A stretch of 55,190 bases of DNA, counting the filler, from a bacterium (GTDB lineage: Bacteria; UBA9089; CG2-30-40-21; SBAY01): the NCBI GenBank assembly GCA_040757115.1. It is 3 parts of 3 records of this genome, joined end to end, with 100 filler letters (N's around TTAATTAATTAA, not from the genome) between each part and the next. Parts side by side here need not be neighbours in the genome. Positions count along the whole stretch, not along the records: positions 18,479 to 36,803 come from JBFLYA010000067.1; 2 more parts are not named here. One strand, given 5' to 3'. The position numbers and the translations under genes are program-made. Numbering within the stretch: position 1 is the stretch's first letter; each line of letters starts with the position of its first letter. The notes under the pieces are model-generated. The model was given only the letters and a program-made list of their open reading frames with translations. It was not told where the DNA came from and did not search any database. This document shows, in pieces, positions 17,699 to 45,602 of this stretch.

Positions 17699-17721
17699 AG
17701 AAATCTAAATCCAGTTATAAG

Positions 17722-17987: not shown

Positions 17988-18255
17988 CTAGTGCTCTGTC
18001 GCTACTTAATTGATGGATAAACCCGTTTCAAAAAATAGATATTGAAACAAGTTGATTTGAAATTCATAGAAATATGGTAGAAATTAGTTGAAATTTATAG
18101 AAATTGATGGAAATTGGTAGAAAGATGGTGCAAGAAAACAATAAGTTTCTATTTATTTCTACTAATTTCAATTATATTTCCATAAGTTTTATATTATTAT
18201 TGACAAAGAATGCTTAAGAAAAATATTAATCAAATCATTGGCGACAGAGCACTAG
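17988..18255. mobile_element. MITE sharing TIRs with the adjacent IS630
   Basis: CTAGTGCTCTGTCGC at both ends; interior 10-11-nt inverted repeats. Confidence 0.85.
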
Positions 18256-18378
18256 TGCTCTGTCGCCAATGATTTGATTAAGATTTTGGTCATTCTTGCC
18301 GATAATAATATAAACTCTTGAGGCAAGGAGGAACCAAAATGAAAAAAAGTATATAGTTGAATTAACGGACGAAGAACG
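18252..18378 (+). mobile_element. IS630-family left end and transposase start, cut by gap
   Basis: CTAG end; SD AAGGAGG; ATG 18339 then KYIVELTDEER in a shifted frame after an A7 run. Confidence 0.75.
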
Positions 18379-18478
18379 NNNNNNNNNNNNNNNNNNNNNN
18401 NNNNNNNNNNNNNNNNNNNNNNTTAATTAATTAANNNNNNNNNNNNNNNNNNNNNNNNNNNNNNNNNNNNNNNNNNNN
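18379..18478. other. Assembly gap with all-frame stop linker
   Basis: 44 N + TTAATTAATTAA + 44 N. Confidence 0.97.
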
Positions 18479-18480
18479 CA

Positions 18481-19188
18481 TTCTGGGGATTCAAAAGCCA
18501 TGCTGCCTTCCAACAAACCCAATTCGGAGTTGTTAATATTAACGAACAAACTACTCCTGGCAATACTCCGGATGTTAAGGCCTTCTTTTCAGTTATTAAA
18601 CCAATTACTAATACTCTCAACTTAACTATCAAGACCTTTTTGGCTGATGCTGCCTATGACGCCTGGTATGTCTATCAATATATTGCCAAAGGTGGTGGTG
18701 TTGCCTTTATACCTTTAAATACTCGGGGTCATAAAATCCTTCAACATTCCTTTGGTAAAAACGGTCGTCTTCTTTGCCAGGATAACCGTGAAATGGATAA
18801 TGGTGGAGCCTGGTTTGATAAACAAAAACAGCATCGACGACAAAAATTTATCTGCCCTCTTATTAATCCTAAAACAGGTAAGAGAAAACCTGGTCAAAAA
18901 TGCCGCTGCAACCACCCCAACTGGCAAAAGAAAGGCTGTACTCAATACATCAACCTTGACGATGTTGAAAATGCACGCTTTGCCATTGATAGAGAATCTA
19001 AACTATTTAAACAAACTTACAAACATAGAACTCTGGCAGAAAGAGGGTTTTCCATTCTTAAAGATTATGCTATTGAAAAACCTATCTCTCGTAATCTAAA
19101 CTCTATTGCCAACATCTATACCCTTGCTTATGCTCTAATGAATGCCAAAGTAATCCTTCAGGCAAAAGAAAAAACTTCATCTGTGTAA
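18481..19188 (+). mobile_element. DDE transposase C-terminal part (IS4/IS5/IS1182-like), 5' end in gap
   Basis: FWGFKSH, LADAAYD, FIPLN, YKHRTLAERGFSILK. Confidence 0.8.
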
Positions 19189-19482
19189 ATTTATCTCTCT
19201 TTTCACTTACTATCTTCTTTAGTTCGATACTCTAACTGTGTCTCTATTACATTTATTACATAATTAAATACCCCTTTCTACTTCTCTTCTGCTCCATCTA
19301 TCCATCTTTTATCCATCCTAAGATTTATTCCTTTTTAATACACCTCCCCTTTTGAAACCTAACCTCAATGTTTATAATGTGTTATATATATCTACCTCAC
19401 CTCCTAAACACCCCCAAAATCTACCCTCTTAATATTATAGTCCCTTGATTTTACAGAGGTTAATAGGTCCGACCCTCATCTC

Positions 19483-19710
19483 GTAACTATTTAGCCACAG
19501 ATGGACACAGATGAAACACTGATTTTTTTTGTAACTATTCACCACGAAGAGCACGAAGGTCACGAAGATTGGACAAGACAAATCTTTTTATGCCTTCTTT
19601 CAATCTTTCTACATTGAAATTTATCAACAAGCCAACTTTGATATTTGCTAACTTTATTAGATATTTCATCAAATTTCACTTCGTGCTCTCCCTGCCCTTC
19701 GTGGTTTAAT
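19483..19710. repeat. GTAACTATT-ended repeats with inverted CACGAAG nonamers enclosing a GxxExxY remnant
   Basis: Ends at 19483 and 19531; CACGAAG...CTTCGTG inverted arrays. Confidence 0.75.
19571..19679 (-). pseudogene. Internally deleted GxxExxY gene
   Basis: VKFDEISNKV joined at AAGTT to KLANIKVGLLINFNVERLKEGIKRFVL, the typical GxxExxY N- and C-termini. Confidence 0.75.
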
Positions 19711-19753
19711 CTCTTTTAGTCTATCCTCACCATAACCCTTAATTCTTCTATCT

Positions 19754-22675
19754 TCATCTCTCTCCATGCAAAATAAATGGTGCCCAGTAGAAGGGGTTAG
19801 GGTATTTTTTCTTTATCTCATTGCGGGCGAGTCTTAATGCCTCTCCTCGGGTCTTACCCTGTTTCAGGTGTTGATAAAATAACTCCATATACTCTCCAGT
19901 CTCTTTTGATGCTACCTCCCAGAGGCTTACGAGAACACTCCTTGCTCCTGCGTGTTGAAATGCCCTGGCAAAGTTCACTACTCCCTCACCTTCCATTACC
20001 TTTCCTCTGCCAGTGAGACAGGCTGAGAGAACCACTATGTCCGCATCCAGGCTTAGCCCTAATACCTCGGTTAAGGTCAGAAATCCATCATCTTCTCCCT
20101 TGTTTTCAACTTGTCCAAGGAGTAAGAAGGGTTCTTTTATGCCCTGCACCTTACCTGGTAAATCAGCATGGGTGGCAAAGTGGAGATAACGATAGTTTTT
20201 GAGTGTAGCCTTACGCAGGTTTGTCTCATTGGCATAGATATTTAATAAAACATCAGGGGGTTCTGATTTTACACCAAAAAGTCCTGCAATTGCTCTGACC
20301 TCGTCCTCTGTCTCAGGAAGTGGAATGAAAAACATCCCTTTGCCTTCTTTATCATCCTTACTTGTTTTTCCCCACTCTCGTCTTGTCGCAAGTCCTCGAT
20401 AGGCATATTGGGCCAGATTCTGGGTCAGCAAGGTAGGTTGTGGTTGCCCTTTTTTATAAGCGATGTAACGAGGGTCATTCTTATCATAAATGGGATTCCC
20501 AAGGGCAAATAAGATTTTAGAAGCCTGAGATGGTTTGAGCATACGGTTTAAGGCAAGGATTGATGCTGATTGGCAATATGTTGTCTTATACTTATCACCT
20601 ACATAAAGGCTATCTCGATAATCCTTTCCTGTGCTTATTACCAGTGCCTCAAAGGGAAGTAGTCCTAATATGCCATCAGGGATGATAATAATCTCTTTAT
20701 CGGGTGATATGCCTTTTAATGCATCTTCTAAGAGAAGACAATAGAGGCTTTGACCAAGGAAGGGAGAAAAATCTTCTTGGGTATATGGGCTTTGCAAGGG
20801 CAAGACAAACTCCTCAACCAATGCCTCTATCCCTTCTTTATCTTTGGGAATCTTTATCAGTCTCTCTACCTTTCCTTTACTCACCACAAAGAGATATGTG
20901 GCATCATCGCATATAGCATACTCCAGAAGAATCTCATTCTCCTTTAGAGGTAATTCCTCAACCGGAATAGGTTTTGGGTAATTTAGGCTGGCATAGCGTG
21001 GGTATTCCCTTCTCATATTTGAGATAAGCACATCAAGTTCCTTCTTTAAAGTTTCCTTCCTCTTTACCCATTCCTTAAACACATCCTCACCCTTTGTATA
21101 CATCTGTGTCCATTGCTCTTCTATGGCAGAGAGTCTATTCAGGATGTCTTCCTCTTTGTTTTTTATCTCAGGAGGTAGTTCTGACTTAAAGTATCCTCTA
21201 ACTGATTCGGCGATTGCCTCAAGCAAAACCCTTGCCCTGGTTGATTCAGCAAAGTAAAAGCTCGTGGATAAGAGGTCTTTGCCATAAGGCTTAAACCTTT
21301 CATCTATTGTTTCTCCCGTGATTACCCTTTCTGAGAGGGTAGAGATAAGCCCTTTATATGACCTGATTCTTCCACCATAATAACCTGCCCCAAAGAATCC
21401 TGCTTTCTCTCCTTTGATTCTCGCTCTCATTTCCTCAGAGATGGATACTGCCTGAAGGAATTCAGCTGATGCCTCCTTGAATTTACCCATCCCTTTTAAT
21501 CCCAGACCATTCTGGGTATAAACCTGGATACGATATGGGTCAGCAGTATTCCATTTTGGTGCCATTTCCTTAAGGAGGTTTAATGCCTCATTATGCCTTC
21601 CGGTAGCAATATAAAGCTCAACAAAACCAGATCTTCCTTTTGCCTCACTGAAATACTTTTCAGCCTCTTTATATCTTTTTTGAGATAGGTAAATATCACC
21701 AATATTATTCAGGCTTATGGCGATATCCTGAGGAATATTGAGTTCTTTTCTTATCTTCAATGCCTCCTCAAAGTAGCTTAATGCCTTCTCATACTGACCA
21801 AGGAAGTAGTAAACATAACCGATATTATTCAGGCTTGTGGCGATATCCTGAGGGATATTGAGTTCTCTATATATCTTCAATGCCTCCTCATAGTAGTTCA
21901 ATGCCTTTTCATACTGACCAAGGGAGGAGTAAACAGCACCGATATTATTCAGGCTTGTGGCGATATACTGAGGGATATTGAGTTGTCTTCTTATCTTCAA
22001 TGCCTCTTCATAGTAGTTCAATGCCTTTTCATACTGACCAAGGGAGTCGTAAACAAGACCGATATCATTCAGGCTTATGGCTATATACTGAGGGATATTG
22101 AGTTGTCTTACTATCTTCAATGCCTCCTCATAGTAGTTCAATGCCTTATCATACTGACCAAGGTGGTGGTAAACAAGACCGATATTATTCAGGCTTATGG
22201 CTATATACTGAGGGATATTGAGTTCTCTATATATCTTCAATGCCTCCTCCAAGTAGTTTAATGCCTTTTCATACTGACCAAGGGAGCAATAAACAAAACC
22301 GATATTATTCAGGCTTGTGGCGATAGATTCTGGTGATAGATTGTTTTCTCTTTTTATCTTCAGTGCCTCCTCATAGTAGTTCAATGCCTTCTCATACTGA
22401 CCAAGGGAGTTGTATACATAACCGATATCATTGAGATTTGCCGTAATAACCCGAAGATGATTTAAATCACGACAAATTTTTAATGACCTTTCATAATACG
22501 CCAGTGCTTCCTGATACCTTCCATATTTCTTTGCTTCCTTTCCCTGATTGTAAAGTCTTAGTGCTTTGTAAAGTCTTAGTGCTTCATCTACTGACTGTGA
22601 AAAGGTATTTCCCCAACACCCTATTACAAACAAAGCAATGAATAAAATGAATAAAGTAATTATTTTTCTCTTCAT
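19754..22675 (-). CDS. Exported TPR-CHAT (caspase-like) protease
   Basis: Signal peptide; about 8 40-aa TPRs; CHAT motifs IIPDGILGLLPFEAL, LPETEDEV, LHFATHA, VVLSACLTG, LVSLWEV, PFYWAPF; His/Cys dyad intact. Confidence 0.92.
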   Translation of the reverse strand: MKRKIITLFILFIALFVIGCWGNTFSQSVDEALRLYKALRLYNQGKEAKKYGRYQEALAYYERSLKICRDLNHLRVITANLNDIGYVYNSLGQYEKALNYYEEALKIKRENNLSPESIATSLNNIGFVYCSLGQYEKALNYLEEALKIYRELNIPQYIAISLNNIGLVYHHLGQYDKALNYYEEALKIVRQLNIPQYIAISLNDIGLVYDSLGQYEKALNYYEEALKIRRQLNIPQYIATSLNNIGAVYSSLGQYEKALNYYEEALKIYRELNIPQDIATSLNNIGYVYYFLGQYEKALSYFEEALKIRKELNIPQDIAISLNNIGDIYLSQKRYKEAEKYFSEAKGRSGFVELYIATGRHNEALNLLKEMAPKWNTADPYRIQVYTQNGLGLKGMGKFKEASAEFLQAVSISEEMRARIKGEKAGFFGAGYYGGRIRSYKGLISTLSERVITGETIDERFKPYGKDLLSTSFYFAESTRARVLLEAIAESVRGYFKSELPPEIKNKEEDILNRLSAIEEQWTQMYTKGEDVFKEWVKRKETLKKELDVLISNMRREYPRYASLNYPKPIPVEELPLKENEILLEYAICDDATYLFVVSKGKVERLIKIPKDKEGIEALVEEFVLPLQSPYTQEDFSPFLGQSLYCLLLEDALKGISPDKEIIIIPDGILGLLPFEALVISTGKDYRDSLYVGDKYKTTYCQSASILALNRMLKPSQASKILFALGNPIYDKNDPRYIAYKKGQPQPTLLTQNLAQYAYRGLATRREWGKTSKDDKEGKGMFFIPLPETEDEVRAIAGLFGVKSEPPDVLLNIYANETNLRKATLKNYRYLHFATHADLPGKVQGIKEPFLLLGQVENKGEDDGFLTLTEVLGLSLDADIVVLSACLTGRGKVMEGEGVVNFARAFQHAGARSVLVSLWEVASKETGEYMELFYQHLKQGKTRGEALRLARNEIKKKYPNPFYWAPFILHGER
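21700..22435 (-). repeat. 120-bp near-identical tandem DNA repeats encoding TPRs
   Basis: Period 120 visible at 21781/21901/22021/22141/22261. Confidence 0.92.
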
Positions 22676-22765
22676 TTTTTTATAACCTCCTTATAAAAGT
22701 AGCCATTTCCAGAGTGGAAAAGTTTCCACCTGTGCGGTTAGATTAACCTTCCTCACATCTTTTAA

Positions 22766-23096
22766 AACCACGAACGACCCACAAGTGGGTACCCCGGAAG
22801 GGGATGAAGAATTATAAACCAAATCGTAACTATTCAGCCACAGATGGACACGGATGAAACACGGAAAAATCGGTGAGGCGTGTTCGGTATCCGTGTCTGT
22901 AATCAGGCTGAAGGCTGAAGGGCTTTTCTTCTTCTAACTTCCACCTTCCTTAATCCCCCGCCAGCGGGGGACATCTATCTCTACCCTCTGCTTTCTCGCC
23001 CCTTGCATCTTGTCTTCTACTATCTGCTATTTATCCGTGTTAATCTGTGGCTGAATAATTACATTTTCTTCGTGGTCTTCGTGCCCTTCGTGGTTT
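22766..23096. repeat. Nested hairpin repeats (inner element 22826-23062 with GTAA...TTAC ends)
   Basis: GTAACTATTCAGCCACAGAT vs ATCTGTGGCTGAATAATTAC; outer AACCACGAA / TTCGTGGTT. Confidence 0.75.
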
Positions 23097-23112
23097 ATCT
23101 TAATCGCATTAG

Positions 23113-23171
23113 TGACCATCCTATTGGTTAAATATAGCAAGATTATAACCATTATAATGGTTATTTGTCAA
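23113..23171 (-). promoter_or_regulatory. sigma70-like promoter for the CHAT gene overlapped by palindromic operators
   Basis: TTGACA(23171-66)-N18-TATAAT(23147-42); perfect palindrome ATAACCATTATAATGGTTAT at 23145-64; second site TGACCA-N6-TGGTTA at 23113-30. Confidence 0.65.
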
Positions 23172-23213
23172 GTTAAATCGCAACCACCAGTAGCTATTTT
23201 CATTTTTTTTCAC

Positions 23214-24008
23214 TCATCTATGCTTAAATTGATACATTCCGAATACCAGACCTGGTAATTTATCTGTTACCTGGTCATTATGAATTAAGTGCGAAACGAG
23301 TTTTTCTGTCAAATCTCTTTTGTAAGTCAGTTCTCTTTCTGCATTCAGTCTGGCAGTTAATTCTTCCAGTCCCTCCTGTCTCCACCTTGAAGCTACCAGG
23401 TATATCTTCTCTGTCCCGGGTATATCGTCTAAGGAAAACCAATTAGCGTCATTGGGAATTCGTAGTGGTCCTGGTGGTATAGGATTAGGTGTTGGGATAT
23501 CTTTACCTGGAAAGAGTTGTTTTAAGACTCCAGAGCTATTTAATTGAAAGATATAGAGATAACAATAGTCAGATGCATAAGTTGTCAGGTAATAAGGGTC
23601 ATTGCTGGTTAGGATTAGGGTATCAGATGGAGTTTTAGCGGTAACAAATCTCTTTTGAGCAGGCAGGTAATGGAATTTGGAGTCAACCTTAAGTTCATCC
23701 ATTAACAGGGAGTAGAGATTCTTTAGTGAGGCATCCTCGGGATTTGTCTTAAGCCTTTGGTTAAGTTTTGTTATGGCTGTATCGTAGTCTCCAGATACAA
23801 TCATTTTATATATTTGTTCAGTGGAAACAGATGTGGTTTTCAGCCATTGTTTATTGACTGGTTTTGGTAATTTAAGGCTGGCTTTCTTAAGCCAATATCC
23901 TCCAGAGACTATGAGCAAAACAGCGATTGCTATTGGCAAGACGACTTTCATCATCAGCCTTTTTATTTTATCCCAGAATATCATTTGCTGTAATGGAGTT
24001 CCAAACAT
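23214..24008 (-). CDS. Membrane-anchored protein with TPR-like helix and DUF4384-like domain
   Basis: TM VVLPIAIAVLLIVSGGYWL; CYLYIFQLNSSG..QLFP..NPI....RIP....F.LDDIPGTEKIYLVAS. Confidence 0.75.
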   Translation of the reverse strand: MFGTPLQQMIFWDKIKRLMMKVVLPIAIAVLLIVSGGYWLKKASLKLPKPVNKQWLKTTSVSTEQIYKMIVSGDYDTAITKLNQRLKTNPEDASLKNLYSLLMDELKVDSKFHYLPAQKRFVTAKTPSDTLILTSNDPYYLTTYASDYCYLYIFQLNSSGVLKQLFPGKDIPTPNPIPPGPLRIPNDANWFSLDDIPGTEKIYLVASRWRQEGLEELTARLNAERELTYKRDLTEKLVSHLIHNDQVTDKLPGLVFGMYQFKHR

Positions 24009-24012
24009 AATA

Positions 24013-24714
24013 GTATCTCCTGATTGTAACTGTTCACCGCAGAGACACAGAGACGCAGAGAAGAAAATTAAAATTTATGGACGATACGCTTAATCCCATC
24101 CTTGATTTTCATCAGTGCAAGCTTTTGAGAACAGATTAATGTAACACTTTTAGCCATCTGAAGTGGAATCATGGTAATCAGTTATCGGTAATCGGTTATC
24201 GGTGACCGATTACCTGATTACCGACCACCGATTACCCGATTACCTTATGGTCACCATGTCCTATGTATTACCATGATGTCCTCAATAATCTTTTCTGTTA
24301 TCTGATTTATTTCCATATCTTCTCTGTTCCTCTGCGTCTCTGCGGTGAATTACTATCTGTATCTCCTGATTGTAACTGTTCACCGCAGAGACACAGAGAC
24401 GCAGAGAAGAAAATTAAAATTTATGGACGATACGCTTAATCCCATCCTTGATTTTCATCAGTGCAAGCTTTTGAGAACAGATTAATGTAACACTTTTAGC
24501 CATCTGAAGTGGAATCATGGTAATCAGTTATCGGTAATCGGTTATCGGTGACCGATTACCTGATTACCGACCACCGATTACCCGATTACCTTATGGTCAC
24601 CATGTCCTATGTATTACCATGATGTCCTCAATAATCTTTTCTGTTATCTGATTTATTTCCATATCTTCTCTGTTCCTCTGCGTCTCTGCGGTGAATTACT
24701 ATCGGAACGGTTAC
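24013..24714. repeat. Exact tandem duplication (period 346) of a GxxExxY-derived mini-element
   Basis: 24013-24357 = 24359-24703; each copy carries MEINQITEKII...IHRT (ATG 24316 / 24662, - strand) and KDGIKRIVHKF*; terminal GGAACGGTTAC at 24704-14. Confidence 0.9.
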
Positions 24715-25439
24715 AAAAATAGTTTCTTAAATGCATCTTCTGTTTCAGCTCGTTGATAAAAGTGGTCGTCAGTAATTTTCAGTTCTGCTGAGCTAAAGAT
24801 ATCTACCCAGGTATTGACAATGTTTTTAAATTCCTTTCTTCCTGAGGCATTAACATAAAGACAATAAACCTCTGTATCTATGGGAAACCTTAAATCATCG
24901 GCATCCTGAAGTCTTGGTGGCCAGGGATACTGAATCATATCAGAAAAGATGATGATTGTATTACGATAATTACCTTCTTCTCTGTTTAAGAAGTGGGCGG
25001 TATGATATAAGGCACCTAAGATATCCGTTCCTTTATAAACCTCCTGGCGCCTGGTTAATTCTTGCACAGCTTTACTTATCCTTGTCTTTTCTTGTATTGC
25101 CTGCAAGGTAGCTTCATTAAAGGTCTTTAGGGGAATCCTTACATCATCAATATCAAAGCCATGCTCATCAATCCCAATCACGCAGAACTTATCACCAGGC
25201 TGAATCTGGTTTACTATCCGTCTAACCCAGGGGACGACCTCTGGCCAAAACATAGTGATTTGCCCTTGTGAGCTGTGCAAGGCAAAAGAATCTGTCTCAT
25301 CTACTAAGACAATCACAAATCGGGGTTTTTCTGGTTGTTCCAATCCACCACATCCTGCTAATAACAGAAGAGGAATGCAGATACCTAATGTTGTTTTAAC
25401 TATGGGCAGAAAACGATGGATTTGTGAAAAAGTCTTCAT
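24711..25439 (-). CDS. Lipoprotein with vWA-like domain
   Basis: Lipobox LAGC; IVLVDETDS (MIDAS-like), GTDILGAL, IIIFSDM; stop codon supplied by the repeat end. Confidence 0.7.
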   Translation of the reverse strand: MKTFSQIHRFLPIVKTTLGICIPLLLLAGCGGLEQPEKPRFVIVLVDETDSFALHSSQGQITMFWPEVVPWVRRIVNQIQPGDKFCVIGIDEHGFDIDDVRIPLKTFNEATLQAIQEKTRISKAVQELTRRQEVYKGTDILGALYHTAHFLNREEGNYRNTIIIFSDMIQYPWPPRLQDADDLRFPIDTEVYCLYVNASGRKEFKNIVNTWVDIFSSAELKITDDHFYQRAETEDAFKKLFL

Positions 25440-25458
25440 TGGTGACTACCTCCTTTTT

Positions 25459-27129
25459 TTACCTTTTGCCCCAGTTCCATGGTAATAATAAAGATAGATA
25501 TTTGAGATTGTATTTCCATAGTAAACCTTTAAGTGTCTTCCTATGGTGGTTTACAGTCTCCTTTACCTTCCTGGTCCTATCTTCAACCGCCTTATATGGA
25601 GCCGTTGCTATCGCTGGGGTATATTGGTTAAATTTTTCTCTTAGTTCCTTCAGAGTTTTACTGAGATTTTCCAGGTCAGTTTCTATCCCTAGAAGTTTAT
25701 TAGACCGGACATTATTAGTGATTCTGTGGGATGTATCCAGGATATTTTCTGCACTTTCTTTTATCTTTCTATCCGAAGCCTTTGTCTCTTCTAATAAGCT
25801 CTCCAAATCCCTTCTTTGGTGATGAGGGATAACTGAAGACGGTGTTTGGACTCCGAGCAATATATTACTTATCTCCTGAGCGATGTTCTTTAAATCAATA
25901 TGTAAGGGTGAAGAATCTAACTTCAGCAAATCCGTTTCAGCATCTACAAGTTTAGGTCCAAAGTCATTTTTAAATCTATTTACTGTATCTTCCCATGTTT
26001 TTAGGGAAACAAACTGCACAACCTCTGGCAAAAATCGCTCAATCTCTTTATTCTGGTCATCTATCTCTTTATTAGCTTTTTTCACCGTCTTTTTTACCTG
26101 CTTCAATGAGCGCCAGTCATTAGCTTCTTCTATTCCCTTATCTATGTTATCTATCCTTGCGTCCCATTGTTTTATCTTGTTTTCAAATTGTCCTATTTTC
26201 TGTATCGGTTCATCAAAACTCTGAATTTTTTTCCCTAATATTTCGTTAGATGTTATCTCCGTCTTTAGTTCGTTAGTATCTTTCTTCAATTTTTCAACCT
26301 TCTTTTCTAACTCATTAGTCTCATTCTTTAAGTCGGTTACCGCCTGGGGCACTTTCTCCCTCTGATGAATAATAACAGGTTTAGGAGATACACATACCCA
26401 CCAAACGCCTATACCCCAGACTGAAACCATTAATCCGCCAAACCAATACAGACCAACTTTGACCATTGGCTCTATGAATTGTCCGAAACCAAATGTGCCA
26501 GCAAGAATCTCACCGATAGGGACAAAGAGACCAATAATCCCTGCTAACCATGGGCCATATTTAGATATTATTATATCCACCTGTGTAGGTGAGATTGGTA
26601 TTTCGCCAGCATTCAATAGATATGCCCGCCAAATAGCAAGCCCTGCTTCACAAACAATTGATAAGGCAATCAGGATGAAGAGACAAATCTTTGCAAGTTT
26701 GGTCCAGAAGGTTTCGGCTCTGATAGCTTTAAATATTACCCCAAAGACTGTCTGAGTAATTGCCCAGAGAAAGCCCATTATTAAAGGGAAGACAGAGTAA
26801 GTTCCTACCCAGGGGAGGGGAATTCGTCTTCCACCACCAGGAAAGACCATTTCTAAAACCTGTGCCAATATAAGCACATTCAAGGCAATAAGAAATGGCC
26901 AGAGTAAGGCACAGAGAAATCCTACAACCGAGGCACCTTGTGGTAAATGGTGGAATAACTCGCCTGCTTTTCTCCACCAGCGGCTTCGATTGTCACATCC
27001 CCATTGACAACTATCCCGATTAAAGGGGAAGTACTTATTAAATAACCAGAAAAACCGTTGAATCAAACCGAGCACGATAATTACTATAAAGGGTAGCGAA
27101 ACCCAGATTTTAAAATCAGAAATCTCCAT
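25459..27129 (-). CDS. Hypothetical multi-pass membrane protein with long C-terminal coiled coil
   Basis: About 6 hydrophobic segments in the first 250 aa, then heptad-rich K/E helices; strong SD AGGAGG. Confidence 0.75.
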   Translation of the reverse strand: MEISDFKIWVSLPFIVIIVLGLIQRFFWLFNKYFPFNRDSCQWGCDNRSRWWRKAGELFHHLPQGASVVGFLCALLWPFLIALNVLILAQVLEMVFPGGGRRIPLPWVGTYSVFPLIMGFLWAITQTVFGVIFKAIRAETFWTKLAKICLFILIALSIVCEAGLAIWRAYLLNAGEIPISPTQVDIIISKYGPWLAGIIGLFVPIGEILAGTFGFGQFIEPMVKVGLYWFGGLMVSVWGIGVWWVCVSPKPVIIHQREKVPQAVTDLKNETNELEKKVEKLKKDTNELKTEITSNEILGKKIQSFDEPIQKIGQFENKIKQWDARIDNIDKGIEEANDWRSLKQVKKTVKKANKEIDDQNKEIERFLPEVVQFVSLKTWEDTVNRFKNDFGPKLVDAETDLLKLDSSPLHIDLKNIAQEISNILLGVQTPSSVIPHHQRRDLESLLEETKASDRKIKESAENILDTSHRITNNVRSNKLLGIETDLENLSKTLKELREKFNQYTPAIATAPYKAVEDRTRKVKETVNHHRKTLKGLLWKYNLKYLSLLLPWNWGKR

Positions 27130-27152
27130 CGTCTTTTAACCTCCTATTTTAG

Positions 27153-27181
27153 TTATCGCATCAAATTATATTTTTTCTCAC
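27153..27181 (-). promoter_or_regulatory. Putative cognate promoter of the island sigma factor (copy 2)
   Basis: GTGAGAAAAAAT-N11-CGATAA, same spacing as 29473-29501. Confidence 0.65.
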
Positions 27182-27182
27182 C

Positions 27183-28307
27183 TCAATCTATGTGTTGGAA
27201 TCTAAATTCTTTATAAAAATCTACCATCTTTTGAATGGTTTCCTTTCTTTTTTCCACAGGTAATACCTTTAACTTCTCTGAAAACAAATTGTTAGATGAG
27301 CGACTGGAGGCAAGAAAATAAAGCTTTTCTTCTCCTGTTTTCTCATCCAGATAATAGCAGGTATCCTCTGATGGAATCCAGTAAGATACACCTTCCTTAA
27401 GTGGATTTGTTTCCCTACTATATTTAACATTAGGGAATAAAATATCGAACTTACCCGAAGAGTCAATCTGGTATATATAGAGATAACATTTAGTATCAGG
27501 TTTAATCTTAAACTGATAGTTATCTTTAGAGCTAAGAGAGAGATTTGAATTACTGTCTTCTTCTATAAGGTTTAGATATTGATGTTGTGGATTGTAATAA
27601 TGGAATTCCATTTCCTGAAAACTAAAGGGTTTTTTACTCACATTGTTTCCTAATACCCGATATCCAATTATAGCTAAAGCCATTATAGCCATCAAGATTA
27701 GCAGATATTTTCTGCCTGGCTTTTTATCAGGAGAACCATCGGGGATTCCCTTCAAAAGTGATTCTATTGCCTCCTTTACTGTAGATACAGGTATAGCCTC
27801 TATCTGGCTTGTCATTATCCTTTCTCTTAGATTGCTATCTATCTCTGCATCATTTTCCTTAGGATAGAATATCTTATCACCCTTCTTTAAGATGCCAAGA
27901 GTAGATTGGAGTTTTTCGTTTATTCCGTTTACCCTTTTTACTACGGCGTCGGCAGTTGAGTCTGAAATTACCCCTGTGGCAGAGATGGAGAATGGTAAAG
28001 GGTTGCCTTTCTTTCGACAAATTTCTTCCGCAAACTTAAGTGAGAATGCTAACCCTGCACTTTCGCCAAATGCCTTAGAAGGAGCTAAATCCTTAAATTC
28101 GTATGAAACAGCTTGTTTTTTGTTCTCTATCAATATTCTTCTATCTCTGAGGATATGATAAACCGAGATAGTCCCCTTCTTAGCTGAAGCTTCTATTTGT
28201 AAGTTATCTTGATTAATCACAAAAACCTCTATTGGTTTATCTGAAAAATAAGACCCCATTAACAACTCACTTATTGTGTTATCCTCAAATAGAGCAAATA
28301 CACCCAT
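27183..28307 (-). CDS. Lon (S16) protease domain - TM helix - DUF4384-like domain
   Basis: FGESAGLA (Ser83), ISATG, VKRVNGINEK (Lys132), IFYPKEN, IPVSTVKEAI; TM YLLILMAIMALAIIGY; CYLYIYQIDSSG..ILFPN..NPL..YWIP..YYLDEKTGEEKLYFLAS. Confidence 0.8.
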   Translation of the reverse strand: MGVFALFEDNTISELLMGSYFSDKPIEVFVINQDNLQIEASAKKGTISVYHILRDRRILIENKKQAVSYEFKDLAPSKAFGESAGLAFSLKFAEEICRKKGNPLPFSISATGVISDSTADAVVKRVNGINEKLQSTLGILKKGDKIFYPKENDAEIDSNLRERIMTSQIEAIPVSTVKEAIESLLKGIPDGSPDKKPGRKYLLILMAIMALAIIGYRVLGNNVSKKPFSFQEMEFHYYNPQHQYLNLIEEDSNSNLSLSSKDNYQFKIKPDTKCYLYIYQIDSSGKFDILFPNVKYSRETNPLKEGVSYWIPSEDTCYYLDEKTGEEKLYFLASSRSSNNLFSEKLKVLPVEKRKETIQKMVDFYKEFRFQHID

Positions 28308-28317
28308 TTATTATACC

Positions 28318-28698
28318 TCAATCTTTAGGTTTGACGAAGAGCTTTTTAAGGTCAATATCTCTTATCTTTTTAACCTTCTGCGCTACCCTTCCTGAAACAA
28401 TTTTCCCTTCAAGGAAGACCTCTCCTTTATCATTTGTAACTATTATACTTCTTCCCTCAATCTGGTTCTGATAAGGTTCGCTAACCTCCACAGTAATGAG
28501 TCCGTTTTCTGGCTCATCGATATTCTCTCTGAGTGCCAATCTATATTTCTTTCCTTCTGTATAAATGCTCATCATTCCCTGGAACTCTGTCGATGCCATT
28601 TTGGGCAAGGCTATGTCCCAGACTATAGCCTCTCTTTCTTGTTGCTTCCATTGTCCCCATAAAGTTAAAGCTTCATTTAAGGTTACCTCTCTTTTCAT
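28318..28698 (-). CDS. Hypothetical protein, candidate anti-sigma / protease substrate
   Basis: SD GGAGGTGG; lies between sigma and Lon-like genes; short helical N-terminus, LPKMAST linker, beta-rich C-terminus. Confidence 0.65.
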   Translation of the reverse strand: MKREVTLNEALTLWGQWKQQEREAIVWDIALPKMASTEFQGMMSIYTEGKKYRLALRENIDEPENGLITVEVSEPYQNQIEGRSIIVTNDKGEVFLEGKIVSGRVAQKVKKIRDIDLKKLFVKPKD

Positions 28699-28745
28699 TT
28701 TACCACCTCCGTTGGATAATTAGATAATATGTTCGGAACACGAAT

Positions 28746-29465
28746 CTAAAGGACATCTATCATTGACCACCCTTTCTTCTCCATACACTTCTTCAATATC
28801 TGCTTAGCTTTTTTTTCTTTCCTCTGAGTAGTAGGTATAGACATACCTAATGTTTCAGCTACCTCTTTTAGTGTTTTCCCTTCTACATATCTTTGTTCGA
28901 TTATTTTCTTCTCTATTAAAGGGAGTTGTTCAATACATGAATTTAAAGCTCTGACAATTTCTTTCTCTTCTAATTTCTGACCAGGGCGTTTATTTCCAGT
29001 AGGGATTATATCTGAAATCTCAACCTCCTCTCCGTTCTTTGTAAAAATGGGAGTATCAAGTGATATGAAGACCAAATGCCAGGATTCTATTTCCTTTACT
29101 TCTTTTTCAGAAATACATAGTTTTTCAGCCATCTCTTTTCTAGTCGGCTCCCTACCAAGTGCTTGAGCAAACTCTTCCTTTATTCGTTTATATTCACTCA
29201 GTTTTTTTCTCTTTTCTGGAGGAAGATAATCCGACTTTCTCAAAAAATCTCTGATAGCTCCGTTAACACGATAGAAAGCATAGGTAGTAAATTTAGCACC
29301 TTTTTCAGGATTAAATGCCCTCGCTGCTTCTACCAAACCTAAGAGGGCTTCCTGAATAAGGTCATCTCTCTCCACTTTTACTCCACAGTTAACTAATTTT
29401 GGATATACCGCATTAACTTTGGAGATTGCCCAGTGATAGTACTTTTCTATTTTTATCTCTTCCAT
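28746..29465 (-). CDS. RNA polymerase sigma factor, FliA/WhiG (sigma28-like) family
   Basis: DDLIQEALLGLVEAARAFNPEKGAKFTTYAFYRVNGAIRDFLRK; LGREPT; region 4 KTLKEVAETLGMS. Confidence 0.9.
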   Translation of the reverse strand: MEEIKIEKYYHWAISKVNAVYPKLVNCGVKVERDDLIQEALLGLVEAARAFNPEKGAKFTTYAFYRVNGAIRDFLRKSDYLPPEKRKKLSEYKRIKEEFAQALGREPTRKEMAEKLCISEKEVKEIESWHLVFISLDTPIFTKNGEEVEISDIIPTGNKRPGQKLEEKEIVRALNSCIEQLPLIEKKIIEQRYVEGKTLKEVAETLGMSIPTTQRKEKKAKQILKKCMEKKGWSMIDVL

Positions 29466-29472
29466 AATTTTA

Positions 29473-29501
29473 TTATCGTTTAGATTTTAATTTTTTCTCA
29501 C
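29473..29501 (-). promoter_or_regulatory. Putative autoregulatory promoter of the sigma gene (copy 1)
   Basis: GTGAGAAAAAAT-N11-CGATAA ending 7 nt before the ATG; no SD visible. Confidence 0.65.
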
Positions 29502-29520
29502 ACAAAATCTGCTCTTAATC

Positions 29521-29549
29521 ATTATACTAAAAAATCTCATTCTTGGCAA
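29521..29549 (-). promoter_or_regulatory. sigma70-like promoter for the sigma operon
   Basis: TTGCCA-N17-TATAAT. Confidence 0.65.
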
Positions 29550-29566
29550 CATTAAAGTTTGTTTTT

Positions 29567-29703
29567 CAGAAATTCTCGGTGAAAAATTAGATAGAGACTC
29601 ATTATTCTTTATTTTCCTCTCAAAATATTTACGAAAAATATTTTTCTCTATCTCTCCTCAACATAGGTGAATTCAGTCTCTAAAAATTCACCGAGAATTG
29701 CTG
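29567..29703 (-). mobile_element. 137-bp MITE, second copy, no TSD
   Basis: Reverse complement of 8458-8594 with a few substitutions. Confidence 0.9.
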
Positions 29704-29720
29704 CATAAAAGGAAAAAAAC

Positions 29721-29749
29721 TTGACCAGCCATCTAAATTATGCTATAAT
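29721..29749 (+). promoter_or_regulatory. sigma70-like promoter of asmA operon
   Basis: TTGACC-N17-TATAAT with TG extension. Confidence 0.65.
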
Positions 29750-29824
29750 ACTTATCGCAATTATTAAATTACATTAACTCACTTCCAAAAATTCTAAAGT
29801 GGTTGTTAATGATAACAAGAGGTT

Positions 29825-31891
29825 ATGAAAAAGAAATCGTTAATCTTTATCAGTATATTTATTCTAATTTTAGTTCTTGGGGCTATTATCCTTCCGTTTA
29901 TTACTATTTCCTCACCTCAACTAACCAAATTTATTTCAAACCAGTTAGAGAAAAATTTAGCACGAAAGGTCGAAATAGGCAGATTGAAAATTGGTATTTT
30001 GACCGGCATTGAATTACACGATGTAGTTGTCTTTAACAAATCAGGATTTAAGAGTAAAGCGTTGATAGAAAACAAGAGACTTATTTTGAAATATAGGTTT
30101 TTCCCTTTGCTAAAAAGACAATTAATAGTTACTAATCTTTTATTTATTGAACCAACGATTTTTATCGAGCGAAATAAATCTAATAGATGGAATTTTACAG
30201 ATTTGTTGAAAAAGAATACTTATAAAAGAGAGAAAGAAGCGGGTAACTTTTCTTTTCAAATAGATAAGATAAGGGTAAAAAAAGGAAGCATATATTTTTT
30301 AGATGAGGGAATTTCACCAAAATTGAAAACATCTATTGAAAAGATTGATATTCAAATAGATGGATTAAATAAAAGAGACGGGATAATTGGATTTAGAGTA
30401 AGAGCCGGGGAAATTGGTGGGAGGAGAATTAATCTTAAACTCGGAGGCGGGGTTGAGGTTGACCTGGATTCAGGAGTAATAGAAATAGTTACAGCGACAT
30501 TTACATTAGCCGATTTAAAAGCCGAACTCGAAGGAGGACTAAAAGATGAATTAATCAACATAACCCTGAAAACTAATGAGTTCTCTATAGCTAATATAAT
30601 TAGATTAATTCCATTTCCTGACATTGAAAAACTAAAACTCGCTGGTAAAAGTAAAATAAATGTATCTTTAAATAGCAGGCTAAATGAAAATTTACAGGTT
30701 TTAGGTCGGGTGATATTAAAAAATGGTAAAGTAGAATATGAGGGGGTAAGGAACGGTATTAAAGATATTAACTTAGACCTGCAATTTACTGAAGACGATA
30801 TGAACTTACTATCCCTGACCGGCCAATTCGGTGAGTCTAATTTTAATATGCAGGGAGAACTCCAAAATTTCAAAAATCCTAAGATAAATTTTATGGTTCG
30901 CTCACAACAACTTATTTTAGATGAAATAATAGAGGGTTATGGTGAATTTATTGAAGCATTCCCAAATCTGAAATTTGACCAACAATATAAATTAGATGTG
31001 AAAGGGGAAATTAATGTAGATGAATGGTCTTTTAAGAAAATTATAGGTAAGGAATTTTATACTGATTTTAAATGGGTTAGGAATATCCTGATGATTAAGG
31101 CATTAAAAAGTAAGGTTTCTGATGGAGTGGTAGAGGCTTCTGGAACGATAGATTTAGGTAGTAAATTGCCAGGATATTCTGTCTTTGCTAATGCAAAACA
31201 AATCGAAATTGCCAACATCATATCAAGTTTTTCTGAGACAAATAACAGGTTTGTTTGTGGTAAGTTGAGTTCAGAGATAAATATTAAAGGAGCGGGATTT
31301 AAACTAAATGAATTAAAAGAAAATTTAGAAGGTTCTGGAAGTGTAGAATTAAAAGATGCAAAGATAAAAGGATTAAAGATATTAGATAGATTAGCGGCTT
31401 TCCTTACTTTAGGCGTGATTCGTAACCTGACTCAATGTCATATATTAACGACATTTAAGATAGAAGATGGAATAATATCAAGTGATGACTTTGAATTGAG
31501 AAGTCATTTAATTAAACTGTTAGGCAGTGGTAAAATATCCCTTGACTTAGATATGGACTTTAATATGACCGCGACATTCCCCGGACGATTAGGAAAACAA
31601 ATCTCTAAATTAGGAAAAATAATTCCATTCCTGGGTGATAAAAAAGACAGGATGGGTGTTCGGTTTAGAATTAAAGGTAATTTTAAAGAGCCTGAATTTG
31701 CCAGGACAGAAGAAATAAAACAAAAGATTGAATTAGAAACTAAAGAAGAAAAGGAAAAAATTAAGGAAAAAATACAGCAACAGGTTGAAAAAGAAAAGGA
31801 AGAGATTAAAGAAATAATAGAAGAAAAACAGGAAAAGATTAAAGAAAAAGCAAAGGAAGAGGTTAACAAATTGTTCAAAAAATTATTTTAG
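29825..31891 (+). CDS. AsmA-family protein
   Basis: N-terminal TM, LARKVEIGRL, IERNKSNRWNFTDL, repeated beta-groove pattern, AsmA-like C-terminus. Confidence 0.8.
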   Translation: MKKKSLIFISIFILILVLGAIILPFITISSPQLTKFISNQLEKNLARKVEIGRLKIGILTGIELHDVVVFNKSGFKSKALIENKRLILKYRFFPLLKRQLIVTNLLFIEPTIFIERNKSNRWNFTDLLKKNTYKREKEAGNFSFQIDKIRVKKGSIYFLDEGISPKLKTSIEKIDIQIDGLNKRDGIIGFRVRAGEIGGRRINLKLGGGVEVDLDSGVIEIVTATFTLADLKAELEGGLKDELINITLKTNEFSIANIIRLIPFPDIEKLKLAGKSKINVSLNSRLNENLQVLGRVILKNGKVEYEGVRNGIKDINLDLQFTEDDMNLLSLTGQFGESNFNMQGELQNFKNPKINFMVRSQQLILDEIIEGYGEFIEAFPNLKFDQQYKLDVKGEINVDEWSFKKIIGKEFYTDFKWVRNILMIKALKSKVSDGVVEASGTIDLGSKLPGYSVFANAKQIEIANIISSFSETNNRFVCGKLSSEINIKGAGFKLNELKENLEGSGSVELKDAKIKGLKILDRLAAFLTLGVIRNLTQCHILTTFKIEDGIISSDDFELRSHLIKLLGSGKISLDLDMDFNMTATFPGRLGKQISKLGKIIPFLGDKKDRMGVRFRIKGNFKEPEFARTEEIKQKIELETKEEKEKIKEKIQQQVEKEKEEIKEIIEEKQEKIKEKAKEEVNKLFKKLF

Positions 31892-44459: not shown

Positions 44460-44463
44460 ACCG

Positions 44464-45003: not shown

Positions 45004-45005
45004 CA

Positions 45006-45560: not shown

Positions 45561-45602
45561 AAATGGAATATCTAATTTCTACCAGAAATCATAGGGAAAA
45601 TA

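What the first reader, a model, noticed from the sequence alone, without database searches (positions are those of the whole stretch)
19754..29549. Candidate new CRISPR-independent protease-to-sigma signalling/conflict system
Seen: seven co-oriented genes with no assembly gap between them, bounded by mobile DNA on both sides. In order: FliA-like sigma, 126-aa unknown, Lon protease-TM-DUF4384-like, multi-TM coiled coil, vWA-like lipoprotein, TM-DUF4384-like, exported TPR-CHAT. Known: CalpL-CalpT-CalpS (SAVED-Lon, anti-sigma, ECF sigma) and Csx29-Csx30-CASP-sigma (TPR-CHAT) release a sigma by proteolysis, but both are triggered by type III CRISPR in the cytoplasm. Inference: here both protease classes occur with a group-3 sigma, no cas genes are in the window, and the sensory parts face outside. 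This suggests envelope sensing that activates a membrane-tethered Lon, which cuts an anti-sigma and switches on membrane effectors.
Basis: partly seen in the sequence, partly recalled or inferred. Interest (0 to 1): 0.92.

Follow-up and report, generated by a model that had tools for sequence, protein, structure and literature searches.

The report
Membrane Lon protease sigma-factor switch
An uncultured bacterium carries a rare gene set in which a membrane receptor with an inward-facing Lon-type protease, a small partner protein and a private sigma factor probably turn an outside signal into gene expression, here joined to an exported caspase-like protease.

Summary
The seven co-oriented genes are real, with no N between them. 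The key doubt is settled: residues 1-190 of the 374-aa protein are a complete, ATPase-less Lon (S16) protease domain. The model has pLDDT 94.8 and matches E. coli Lon at Z 20.0; Ser83 and Lys132 are conserved.

The core is three genes: a FliA-like sigma, the 126-aa protein and Lon-TM-DUF4384. This trio recurs in all nine other loci I could inspect, across at least three lineages, but is rare (0/24, 6/401 and 2/168 genomes).

In 42 of 50 relatives the small protein carries a zinc anti-sigma motif. An Ala-Ala-Ala linker recalls the CalpT cleavage site. The window's copy lacks the zinc motif and departs from the triplet at two of three positions.

A promoter-like motif (TGAnAAA-N15-CGATAA) precedes the sigma gene and the 556-aa membrane gene. 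Related motifs precede sigma and divergent envelope operons in four other loci.

The exported TPR-CHAT link rests on one truncated relative locus. The three genes between are not conserved. MITEs lie at both edges and inside the cluster. A defence role is unsupported.

This scan's earlier notes report the trio on other DNA. I found no paper describing it. Verdict: a new variant of protease-released sigma signalling (CalpL/T/S-like).

The parts
29521..29549 (-). sigma-70-type promoter-like site (TTGCCA-17-TATAAT) upstream of the sigma gene
   Evidence: 11 of 12 consensus positions. Such sites are not enriched in the region (26 found, 31.5 expected), so this is a consensus match only.
29473..29500 (-). 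promoter-like motif TGAGAAA-N15-CGATAA, ending 7 nt before the sigma start codon; candidate autoregulatory promoter giving a near-leaderless mRNA
   Evidence: Related motifs lie upstream of the sigma genes of L004, L013, L014 and L015.
28746..29465 (-). sigma factor, 239 aa, with regions 2, 3 and 4; FliA-like (group 3 type)
   Evidence: Orthologues lie next to Lon-like genes in 7 of 9 other loci; the other two are cut by contig ends.
28318..28698 (-). 126-aa soluble partner: short form of a ZAS-type anti-sigma-like family, with an N-terminal helix, an LPKMAS linker and a C-terminal beta-rich domain
   Evidence: Predicted binding to sigma has weak support.
27738..28307 (-). cytoplasmic ATPase-less Lon (S16) protease domain, residues 1-190, Ser83/Lys132
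27648..27710 (-). single transmembrane segment, residues about 200-220
   Evidence: hydropathy scan. The equivalent segment is present in 6 of 6 homologues examined.
27183..27647 (-). extracytoplasmic region with DUF4384 (residues 262-336)
   Evidence: It is paralogous to the ectodomain of the 264-aa protein.
27153..27180 (-). second copy of the motif TGAGAAA-N15-CGATAA, 24 nt before the start codon of the 556-aa gene and followed by AGGAGG
   Evidence: (D4).
25459..27129 (-). 556-aa protein with six hydrophobic segments and a 300-aa coiled coil; candidate sigma-dependent output
   Evidence: No family assigned. The PADLOC ZorA and LmuB hits cover only the coiled coil.
24711..25439 (-). 242-aa lipoprotein (LLAGC lipobox), weakly vWA-like
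   Evidence: VWA_2, E 1.7e-3, below cutoff.
24013..24704 (.). two tandem copies of a 346-nt MITE-like element with 32-nt inverted repeats, between the 242-aa and 264-aa genes
   Evidence: D2, I4-I7; 117 matches in G001.
23214..24008 (-). 264-aa single-pass membrane protein with an outward DUF4384 and no protease domain
22717..23100 (.). MITE-like element between the 264-aa gene and the TPR-CHAT gene
   Evidence: I3, D3, D5; 115 matches in G001.
23142..23171 (-). sigma-70-type promoter-like site (TTGACA-18-TATAAT) upstream of the TPR-CHAT gene
   Evidence: 12 of 12 consensus positions. A consensus match only.
19754..22675 (-). exported TPR-CHAT lipoprotein, 973 aa, with His832/His836 and Cys886 present
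   Evidence: It is collinear with the TPR protein of L002 up to residue 485.

Best explanation
The core is a three-gene transmembrane switch. A single-pass membrane protein carries a DUF4384 domain outside the cell and an ATPase-less Lon-type Ser-Lys protease inside. A small soluble partner is proposed to hold a private FliA-like sigma factor and to dock on the protease. An outside event acting on the DUF4384 domain is proposed to switch the protease on, perhaps by bringing receptors together. The protease would then cut the partner in its conserved alanine-rich linker and free the sigma. The sigma would transcribe from TGAnAAA-N15-CGATAA promoters in front of its own operon and in front of the 556-aa membrane/coiled-coil gene, which is followed by the 242-aa lipoprotein gene.

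In this lineage an exported TPR-CHAT lipoprotein and a protease-less DUF4384 paralogue probably form the outside input branch. The CHAT protease may bind or cut DUF4384 ectodomains, with the paralogue acting as competitor or co-receptor.

Shown here: the fold, the conserved catalytic residues, the gene linkage and the shared motifs. Inferred: activation, cleavage, sigma release, the regulon, and any CHAT-DUF4384 contact.
For: Lon domain.
- AlphaFold model of residues 1-200 with a 150-row alignment: pLDDT 94.8.
- Foldseek best hits are all Lon proteolytic domains, best 3wu3_B at E 6.9e-10, TM 0.64/0.70.
- VIA-align gives Z 20.0, rmsd 3.4 over 183 residues, to 1rr9_E.
- phmmer hits A. fulgidus Lon at E 0.002, with Lys132 aligned to the Lon lysine.
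- S83, T111, G112 and K132 are at least 90% conserved in 150 rows.
- The domain starts at residue 1, so no AAA+ module is present.

Family.
- 301 representative clusters at E<=1e-3.
- Of 110 scanned (110 of the 150 listed), 51 carry DUF4384, 9 reach Lon_C and 5 carry PD40.

Linkage.
- A sigma orthologue lies within about 1.5 kb in 7 of 9 other loci; the other two are cut by contig ends.
- A small-protein homologue is present in 9 of 9.
- One transmembrane segment follows the Lon domain in 6 of 6 homologues examined.

Small protein.
- 42 of 50 family members carry HxxxCxxC.
- The three columns aligned to window M34-A35-S36 are Ala in 48/49, 49/49 and 46/49 members.
- CalpL cuts CalpT inside LAAA (passages of 10.1101/2024.05.08.593097).
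- Complex prediction of sigma with the small protein: weak support. Median score 0.42 (runs 0.00, 0.42, 0.45); best of 3 controls 0.00. The mark was reached by 58 of 80 solved complexes and 2 of 110 mismatched pairs. At 0.60 or under it was reached by only 7 of the 80 and by both mismatches that passed. The runs agree in at least 3% of contacts, and the partner's pLDDT is at least 57. My own alignments were used, so these counts hold only roughly.

Promoter-like motif.
- Two exact sites in the window, before sigma and before the 556-aa gene.
- The same pattern occurs three times in L004 against 0.01 expected, 0 of 200 shuffles. The sites lie before sigma, before a divergent operon (TM/coiled-coil, SBP-vWA, TelA), and before a TM zinc-ribbon gene.
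- L013, L014 and L015 each have a pair TGAAAA-N13/14-TTCGATAA, one before sigma and one before a divergent operon that begins, in L014 and L015, with a lipoprotein gene.

CHAT link.
- In L002 an exported TPR gene directly follows the Lon-DUF4384 gene. It is collinear with the window's TPR-CHAT up to residue 485.
- One group of Csx30 C-terminal domains is DUF4384, and Csx30 is the substrate of the TPR-CHAT Csx29 (passage of 10.1101/2022.08.17.504292).
Against: - The window's small protein is the short form. It lacks the zinc segment (8 of 50 lack it) and has Met and Ser where the family has Ala at two of the three linker positions. Anti-sigma function and cleavage may therefore differ here.
- The complex prediction is weak, and one of three runs scored 0.00.
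- The strict motif was defined from the two window sites and widened after seeing the site upstream of sigma in L004. Only the other two L004 sites are independent matches to that pattern; the L013-15 sites were found with a looser one. That looser pattern is not enriched in the window as a whole (4 sites, 4.2 expected).
- The output genes of different loci share no detectable sequence similarity.
- The 556-, 242- and 264-aa genes are missing from L002.
- TPR-CHAT adjacency is seen in one other locus only, and its CHAT domain lies beyond the contig end.
- MITEs split the 242/264 and 264/CHAT gene junctions.
- Membrane topology comes from hydropathy and charge only.
- There are no expression data.
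Confidence: 0.55

Rival explanations
1. The region holds two or three unrelated units that happen to lie side by side: the sigma/partner/Lon trio, a pair of envelope genes, and an independent pair made of the TM-DUF4384 protein and the exported TPR-CHAT. The CHAT protease has nothing to do with the Lon receptor.
For: - The three middle genes are absent from L002 and not found in the other eight loci.
- MITEs and gaps of 702 and 538 nt separate the last two genes.
- The TPR-CHAT gene has its own perfect sigma-70-type consensus site.
- In 7 of 9 other loci no TPR or CHAT match lies near the trio.
- Earlier scan notes describe exported TPR-CHAT with DUF4384 membrane proteins as a module of its own, with other output domains (unchecked).
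Against: - In L002 the TPR gene directly follows the Lon-DUF4384 gene, 104 nt downstream and on the same strand.
- The window's two DUF4384 ectodomains are paralogues, 30% identical at E 1e-11.
- The motif ties the 556-aa gene to the sigma gene.
Confidence: 0.25
2. It is an anti-phage or other conflict system. Envelope damage or phage attachment triggers the proteases, and the sigma turns on membrane-disrupting effectors, as in abortive infection.
For: - The distribution is patchy: 0/24, 6/401 and 2/168 genomes.
- The cluster is absent from the nearest genome G001.
- Its G+C is 0.35-0.43, against 0.31-0.33 in the immediate flanks.
- CalpL/T/S and Craspase are CRISPR-linked immune modules.
- DdvA/DdvS controls a defence island (abstract of PMC11506125).
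- The 556-aa protein's multi-TM plus long coiled coil recalls ZorA by architecture. The PADLOC ZorA hit (E 1.6e-4) covers the coiled coil only.
Against: - PADLOC gives no hit to a defence system component beyond generic TPR, coiled-coil and sigma-like matches.
- The neighbours are housekeeping and envelope genes.
- The motif-linked outputs in L004 and L013-15 are envelope, lipoprotein and TelA-type genes, not nucleases or NADases.
- No cas genes were seen among the ORFs scanned.
Confidence: 0.12
3. The locus is a decaying remnant. The partner has lost its anti-sigma segment and its cleavage motif, and MITEs have broken the operon, so the sigma is either constitutively free or silent.
For: - The window's partner lacks the HxxxCxxC segment and departs from the Ala triplet at two of three positions.
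- Three MITE copies lie inside the cluster.
Against: - All seven ORFs are intact.
- The short form is shared by 7 sequences of 123-130 aa. Five of them are 61-71% identical to the window's copy; the seventh, P0202 (125 aa), is far more distant at 29%. The form is therefore conserved and not a fresh deletion.
- Ser83, Lys132 and the CHAT His and Cys are present.
- The MITEs lie between genes, not within them.
Confidence: 0.08

Closest known systems
CalpL-CalpT-CalpS (type III CRISPR SAVED-Lon protease, anti-sigma, ECF-like sigma)
   Same: - An ATPase-less Lon-type protease fused to a sensor domain.
- A soluble two-part partner encoded beside a private sigma.
- An alanine-rich linker in the partner. 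CalpT is cut in LAAA; here the linker is an Ala triplet in 46-49 of 49 relatives.
- The proposed logic is the same: the sensor activates the protease, the partner is cut, and the sigma is freed.
   Different: - The sensor is an extracytoplasmic DUF4384 behind a membrane span, not a cytoplasmic cA4-binding SAVED domain.
- The partner is ZAS-type in most relatives, or a short form here. It is not MazF-like plus DUF2080, with no Pfam or PDB-profile match.
- The sigma has region 3 and is FliA-like, not ECF-like.
- No CRISPR context was seen.
Craspase: Cas7-11, Csx29 (TPR-CHAT), Csx30, Csx31, RpoE
   Same: - A TPR-CHAT protease encoded beside a sigma factor.
- DUF4384 occurs as one class of C-terminal domain of Csx30, the CHAT substrate (passage).
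   Different: - Here the TPR-CHAT has a signal or lipoprotein leader and should act outside the cytoplasm.
- There is no Cas7-11.
- DUF4384 sits on a Lon receptor and on a small membrane protein, not on a Csx30-like anti-sigma.
- Figures S13-S14 of that paper, which show the Csx30 C-terminal groups, are supplementary and I could not see them.
DdvA-DdvS of Myxococcus xanthus
   Same: A periplasmic TPR-CHAT module coupled to control of a sigma factor across the inner membrane (abstract and section 8 of PMC11506125).
   Different: - In DdvA the TPR-CHAT is fused to the transmembrane ZAS anti-sigma, and release is thought to need RseP.
- Here the TPR-CHAT is a separate lipoprotein, the anti-sigma-like protein is soluble, and the cytoplasmic protease is a Lon domain on the receptor.
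- DdvS is an ECF sigma.
RseA / DegS / RseP regulated proteolysis of an anti-sigma (recalled general knowledge; no call)
   Same: An outside signal leads to proteolysis and release of a sigma factor that controls envelope genes.
   Different: There the membrane anti-sigma itself is cut in sequence by a periplasmic and then an intramembrane protease. Here the receptor would be the protease and the anti-sigma-like protein is soluble.
Canonical LonA/LonB and BrxL Lon-like domains
   Same: The same proteolytic fold and Ser-Lys dyad. BrxL, 8emh_K, scores Z 17.6.
   Different: There is no AAA+ unfoldase module. The domain is N-terminal and tethered to a membrane span.

Membership tests
Lon (S16) proteolytic domain superfamily | Lon protease fold | tested here: met
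   Model pLDDT 94.8. Foldseek E 6.9e-10, probability 1.00. VIA Z 20.0 over 183 residues.
Lon (S16) proteolytic domain superfamily | Ser-Lys catalytic dyad | tested here: met
   G-E-S83-A-G and E-K132-L. S83 and K132 are at least 90% conserved in 150 rows. K132 aligns to the Lon lysine column. The numbering of the E. coli residues is recalled.
ATP-dependent LonA/LonB | AAA+ ATPase module before the protease domain | tested here: not met
   The Lon domain starts at residue 1, and no AAA family appears in Pfam or NCBIfam.
CalpL-CalpT-CalpS | SAVED sensor fused to the Lon domain | tested here: not met
   Pfam finds only DUF4384 after a membrane span.
CalpL-CalpT-CalpS | Partner made of a MazF-like domain plus DUF2080 | tested here: not met
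   No Pfam family at E<=0.1 apart from a chance phage-baseplate hit. The family profile against PDB gives no CalpT, and its best rows are at E 0.86-0.88. Sequence methods only, so a remote fold likeness was not tested.
CalpL-CalpT-CalpS | ECF-like sigma | tested here: not met
   Region 3 is present (E 2.1e-14). The best solved relative is FliA.
CalpL-CalpT-CalpS | Type III CRISPR neighbourhood | tested here: not met
   No cas family among the 21 window ORFs scanned. Smaller ORFs were not scanned.
FliA / sigma-28 | Score above the TIGR02479 cutoff | tested here: not met
   134.4 bits against a cutoff of 189.6.
ZAS anti-sigma factors | HxxxCxxC zinc motif | tested here: not met
   Absent from the window's 126-aa protein, but present in 42 of 50 family members. 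The profile hit to RsiW is not significant (E 0.88).
ZAS anti-sigma factors | Binds its sigma | tested here: inconclusive
   Weak support: score 0.42, best control 0.00.
TPR-CHAT proteases (Csx29, separase, DdvA type) | TPR array followed by a CHAT domain with the His-Cys dyad | tested here: met
   CHAT E 8e-57 and TPR_12 E 1.1e-83. HFATHA at 832 and LSAC with Cys886. Naming these motifs as the dyad is recalled.
Craspase | Association with Cas7-11 and cytoplasmic location | tested here: not met
   There is an N-terminal hydrophobic leader with VIGC. No cas genes were seen.
DdvA-type anti-sigma | TPR-CHAT fused to a transmembrane ZAS anti-sigma | tested here: not met
   TPR-CHAT is a separate gene product with only a leader peptide.
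von Willebrand A domain | Pfam VWA match above cutoff | tested here: inconclusive
   VWA_2 at E 1.7e-3, 19.4 bits against a cutoff of 27.
Known anti-phage defence systems (PADLOC 2.0) | Match to a system component | tested here: not met
   Only generic TPR, coiled-coil and sigma-like matches.

The most novel reading that the evidence does not exclude
A two-protease relay crosses the inner membrane. An exported TPR-CHAT lipoprotein senses or generates an envelope signal and acts on the DUF4384 ectodomain of a receptor whose cytoplasmic part is a Lon protease. That protease cuts a soluble anti-sigma-like adaptor. The freed sigma amplifies its own operon and switches on a ZorA-like membrane/coiled-coil effector with a vWA-like lipoprotein. 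This would join the logic of Craspase (CHAT acting on a DUF4384-bearing anti-sigma) and of CalpL/T/S (Lon cutting an anti-sigma) in one CRISPR-independent, outward-facing pathway. It would also give DUF4384 a function as the receiver domain for CHAT/caspase proteases.
Probability: 0.2. Interest if true: 0.85.

Novelty: new variant of a known kind. Interest (0 to 1): 0.6.

Why it matters
Known ways of freeing a sigma factor by proteolysis use either a membrane anti-sigma cut by DegS/RseP-type proteases or, inside the cell, the CRISPR-linked CalpL and Craspase. Here the receptor itself would be the protease: a single-pass membrane protein with an outside sensor and an inside Lon domain. Its soluble partner and sigma are private to it, and it has a recognisable private promoter.

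The family is sizeable (301 representative clusters) and uses interchangeable outside domains (DUF4384, PD40 propellers, Ig-like). It could therefore be a general but overlooked one-component route from envelope to transcription.

This window adds three things. It pairs the module with an exported caspase-like protease. It carries a naturally shortened partner. It also supplies a testable promoter motif, which makes the pathway easy to rebuild with reporters.

Tried and rejected
- First structure model of the whole 374-aa protein with 3 sequences: pLDDT 37.4, unusable. It was replaced by the N-domain with 150 sequences.
- Word-based homologue search for the 374-aa protein found only 2 relatives. 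Scans of genome contigs with close patterns found none. A wider alignment found 2 loci. The metagenome scan found 1.
- The window's own assembly is not held. The nearest genome G001 has only a weak DUF4384 match.
- An empty-site test was not possible. G001's contig with the 95%-identical AsmA orthologue ends 188 nt upstream of that gene. The radical-SAM flank has only 33%-identical relatives in G001.
- ESM Atlas: the 126-aa protein's nearest clusters are unnamed hypothetical proteins. Nothing usable came back for the 556-aa protein.
- The CHAT domain found no PDB sequence match at E<=0.01.
- No BLASTP similarity links the window's 556- and 242-aa proteins to the output genes of L004 or L017. 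A shared 'TM coiled-coil plus vWA' regulon is therefore a theme, not homology.
- Rfam found no RNA family in 17500-30500.
- Sequencing runs: no RNA holder is listed. The only full holder (X1, DNA) may be the source of this DNA.
- The palindrome reported at 18373-18484 (I1) is an artefact of two N runs.
- Literature: six searches of the held library found no paper describing a Lon-TM-DUF4384 protein or a membrane Lon/anti-sigma/sigma trio. Subscription journals and supplements are not covered.
- CalpL structures were not among the 50 entries shown by VIA-align. This excludes nothing.

Full report
**Observation.**

The region holds seven intact minus-strand ORFs with no N between them.
- The first four genes are tightly packed, with gaps of 47, 10 and 53 nt, and a 19-nt gap leads to the fifth gene.
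- The last two junctions are 702 and 538 nt long. They are filled by MITE-like repeats: two tandem 346-nt copies at 24013-24704 and one element at about 22717-23100.
- These repeat families have 117 and 115 matches in the nearest held genome, G001.
- A third family, on the right flank at about 29567-29705, has 20 matches in G001.

The flanking genes are a B12/radical-SAM enzyme, AsmA and glycosyltransferases. The wider window is ordinary chromosome: argininosuccinate synthase, a PEP-utilising enzyme, FtsX, a DDE transposase, a pilus secretin and DegP. Those repeats also lie inside the cluster and are ubiquitous in this lineage.

**The Lon question.**

Pfam and NCBIfam see only DUF4384 in the 374-aa protein. 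A phmmer search of residues 1-200 against PDB sequences hit the A. fulgidus Lon protease domain at E 0.002, with Lys132 aligned to the Lon lysine.

A full HMMER search of 1.84 billion representatives found 301 clusters at E<=1e-3.
- Nearly all carry the domain at the N-terminus of proteins 230-830 aa long.
- In a 150-row alignment, S83, T111, G112 and K132 are at least 90% conserved.

With that alignment the domain modelled at pLDDT 94.8.
- The best Foldseek matches listed were almost all Lon proteolytic domains, plus one RadA protease domain (5lkq_B). The best was 3wu3_B at E 6.9e-10.
- VIA-align gave Z 20.0, rmsd 3.4 over 183 residues, to E. coli Lon 1rr9_E.

The domain begins at residue 1, so there is no AAA+ module. 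Of 110 members scanned (110 of the 150 listed, because of a size limit), 51 carry DUF4384, 9 reach Pfam Lon_C and 5 carry PD40 propellers. A few carry Ig-like domains. One hydrophobic segment follows the Lon domain in the window protein and in 6 of 6 homologues examined.

**The conserved core.**

I obtained nine other loci: L002 from a metagenome, L003 and L018 from Latescibacterota-type genomes, and L004 and L013-L017 from a deltaproteobacterial-type phylum.
- A sigma orthologue with regions 2, 3 and 4 lies within about 1.5 kb of the Lon-like gene in 7 of the 9. The other two are cut by contig ends.
- A homologue of the 126-aa protein is present in all nine.
- Gene order varies. In L003 and L018 the sigma gene lies on the other side of the Lon gene from the small gene, and in L003 the small gene is on the opposite strand, yet the three stay together.

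The module is rare: 0 of 24, 6 of 401 and 2 of 168 genomes in three phylum-level samples.

**The small protein.**

A profile search gave 48 proteins, and 50 were analysed after adding the L003 and L004 copies. None has a Pfam family or a name other than 'hypothetical'. The family has four parts:
- an N-terminal helix;
- an insert of about 55 aa with HxxxCxxC in 42 of 50 members;
- a linker whose three central columns are Ala in 48/49, 49/49 and 46/49 members;
- a beta-rich C-terminal domain of about 85 aa.

CalpL cuts CalpT inside LAAA and keeps hold of its C-terminal fragment (passages). By analogy, the Ala triplet is the likely cleavage site and the C-terminal domain the likely docking part.

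The window's copy belongs to a short clade of 7 sequences, 123-130 aa. Five of them are 61-71% identical to it, while the seventh, P0202, is far more distant (29%). This clade lacks the zinc insert. The window's copy is also alone among the six close ones (the window's and the five at 61-71% identity) in reading M-A-S instead of A-A-A.

Complex prediction of sigma with the small protein gave weak support.
- The median score was 0.42 (runs 0.00, 0.42, 0.45), and the best of 3 controls was 0.00.
- The mark was reached by 58 of 80 solved complexes and 2 of 110 mismatches. At 0.60 or under it was reached by only 7 of the 80 and by both passing mismatches.
- Contact agreement was at least 3%, and the partner's pLDDT was at least 57. 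My own alignments were used.

**A private promoter.**

A 37-nt similarity noticed in the repeat scan (D4) places the same motif, GTGAGAAAAAAT-N11-CGATAA, in two places. One copy ends 7 nt before the sigma start codon. The other ends 24 nt before the 556-aa gene, followed by AGGAGG.

I relaxed the motif to TGAnAAA-N14-16-CGATAA after seeing the L004 sigma upstream region. In that form it occurs three times in L004, against 0.01 expected and 0 of 200 shuffles. The sites lie:
- before sigma;
- before a divergent operon encoding a small TM protein, a coiled-coil protein, an SBP-vWA protein and TelA;
- before a TM zinc-ribbon gene.

L013, L014 and L015 each have a pair of TGAAAA-N13/14-TTCGATAA sites in the divergent intergenic region. 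One faces sigma. The other faces an operon that begins, in L014 and L015, with a lipoprotein gene. No such site was seen upstream of sigma in the GC-rich L003, and L018 is cut.

The motif resembles the sigma-28 type -10 element (recalled), which fits the sigma's nearest solved relative being FliA. This supports autoregulation and an envelope-protein regulon. The caveat is that the pattern was partly defined on the data, and the loose version is not enriched in the window as a whole.

**The outside branch.**

The TPR-CHAT protein has a hydrophobic leader with VIGC. It has a strong CHAT match and the HFATHA / LSAC motifs.

In L002, the closest locus (Lon domain 61% identical), an exported TPR protein directly follows the Lon-DUF4384 gene. 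It is collinear with the window's protein through the TPR array and the pre-CHAT linker up to residue 485, where the contig ends.

The window's 264-aa protein carries a DUF4384 ectodomain paralogous to that of the Lon receptor, 30% identical at E 1e-11.

[quoted passage not shown] Csx30 is the substrate of the TPR-CHAT Csx29. DdvA shows that a periplasmic TPR-CHAT can be wired to a sigma. A CHAT-DUF4384 contact is therefore plausible but untested, and here it rests on one other locus.

**What it is not shown to be.**

PADLOC gives no defence-system hit. No cas genes were seen among the ORFs scanned. The middle three genes are not conserved. A conflict role remains a minority reading, supported only by patchy distribution, absence from G001 and a somewhat higher G+C than the immediate flanks.

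**Comparison and novelty.**

The module works like CalpL/T/S but fails its defining features: no SAVED, no MazF-DUF2080 partner, no ECF-like sigma and no CRISPR context. It is likewise not a Craspase or a DdvA-type system.

Six literature searches found no description. DUF4384 appears in only 7 held papers.

This scan's earlier AI notes report the membrane-Lon/anti-sigma/sigma trio on other DNA: 23 findings in at least 21 genomes hold the search words. They also report exported TPR-CHAT paired with DUF4384 membrane proteins. Those notes are leads, not evidence.

My own calls confirm the trio independently on nine loci. They add the DUF4384/TPR-CHAT combination, the short partner and the promoter motif. 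I rate the finding a new variant of a known kind, with interest 0.6.

Noticed in passing
window 24013-24704; 22717-23100; 29567-29705; 19481-19708: At least three MITE-like repeat families are present. They have 117, 115 and 20 matches in the nearest genome G001, at up to 98% identity. They probably explain why that assembly has 770 contigs and why its AsmA contig ends 188 nt upstream of the gene.
   Followed up: partly
window 21569-22445: Six tandem 120-nt units, up to 89% identical at the DNA level, lie inside the TPR-CHAT gene. They encode near-identical 40-residue TPR pairs and may allow repeat-number variation.
   Followed up: no
window 18379-18422, 18435-18478, 36804-36847, 36860-36903, 40427-40526: These are runs of N (276 in all). 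The 62-nt 'palindrome' at 18373-18484 reported by the repeat finder is an artefact of the first two runs.
   Followed up: yes
window 9025-10437 and 18640-19188: A DDE transposase gene (E 1.4e-7) and a weak DDE remnant (E 0.005) lie left of the cluster.
   Followed up: no
window 37087-42824 and 43356-48242: Two very large right-handed beta-helix proteins (1147 and 761 aa) lie next to a type IV pilus gene set ending in a PilQ-type secretin.
   Followed up: no
L004 55-6206 (minus strand): The motif-bearing divergent operon of the deltaproteobacterial locus encodes a small TM protein, a coiled-coil protein, a solute-binding/vWA fusion and TelA. A second motif follows, then a TM zinc-ribbon protein and a Fic/DOC protein.
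   Followed up: partly
L017 2866-4350: Near another Lon-DUF4384 gene lies a 494-aa MotA/ExbB-family protein with a long coiled-coil tail. Its architecture resembles the window's 556-aa protein and ZorA, but no sequence similarity was detectable beyond the coiled coil (E 0.007).
   Followed up: partly
L003 1-4422 and 4756-7170: In the Latescibacterota locus the Lon receptor's ectodomain (PD40 plus Ig-like) uses the same domain types as the huge neighbouring 1474-aa protein. This hints that receptor and neighbour share a ligand or bind each other.
   Followed up: no
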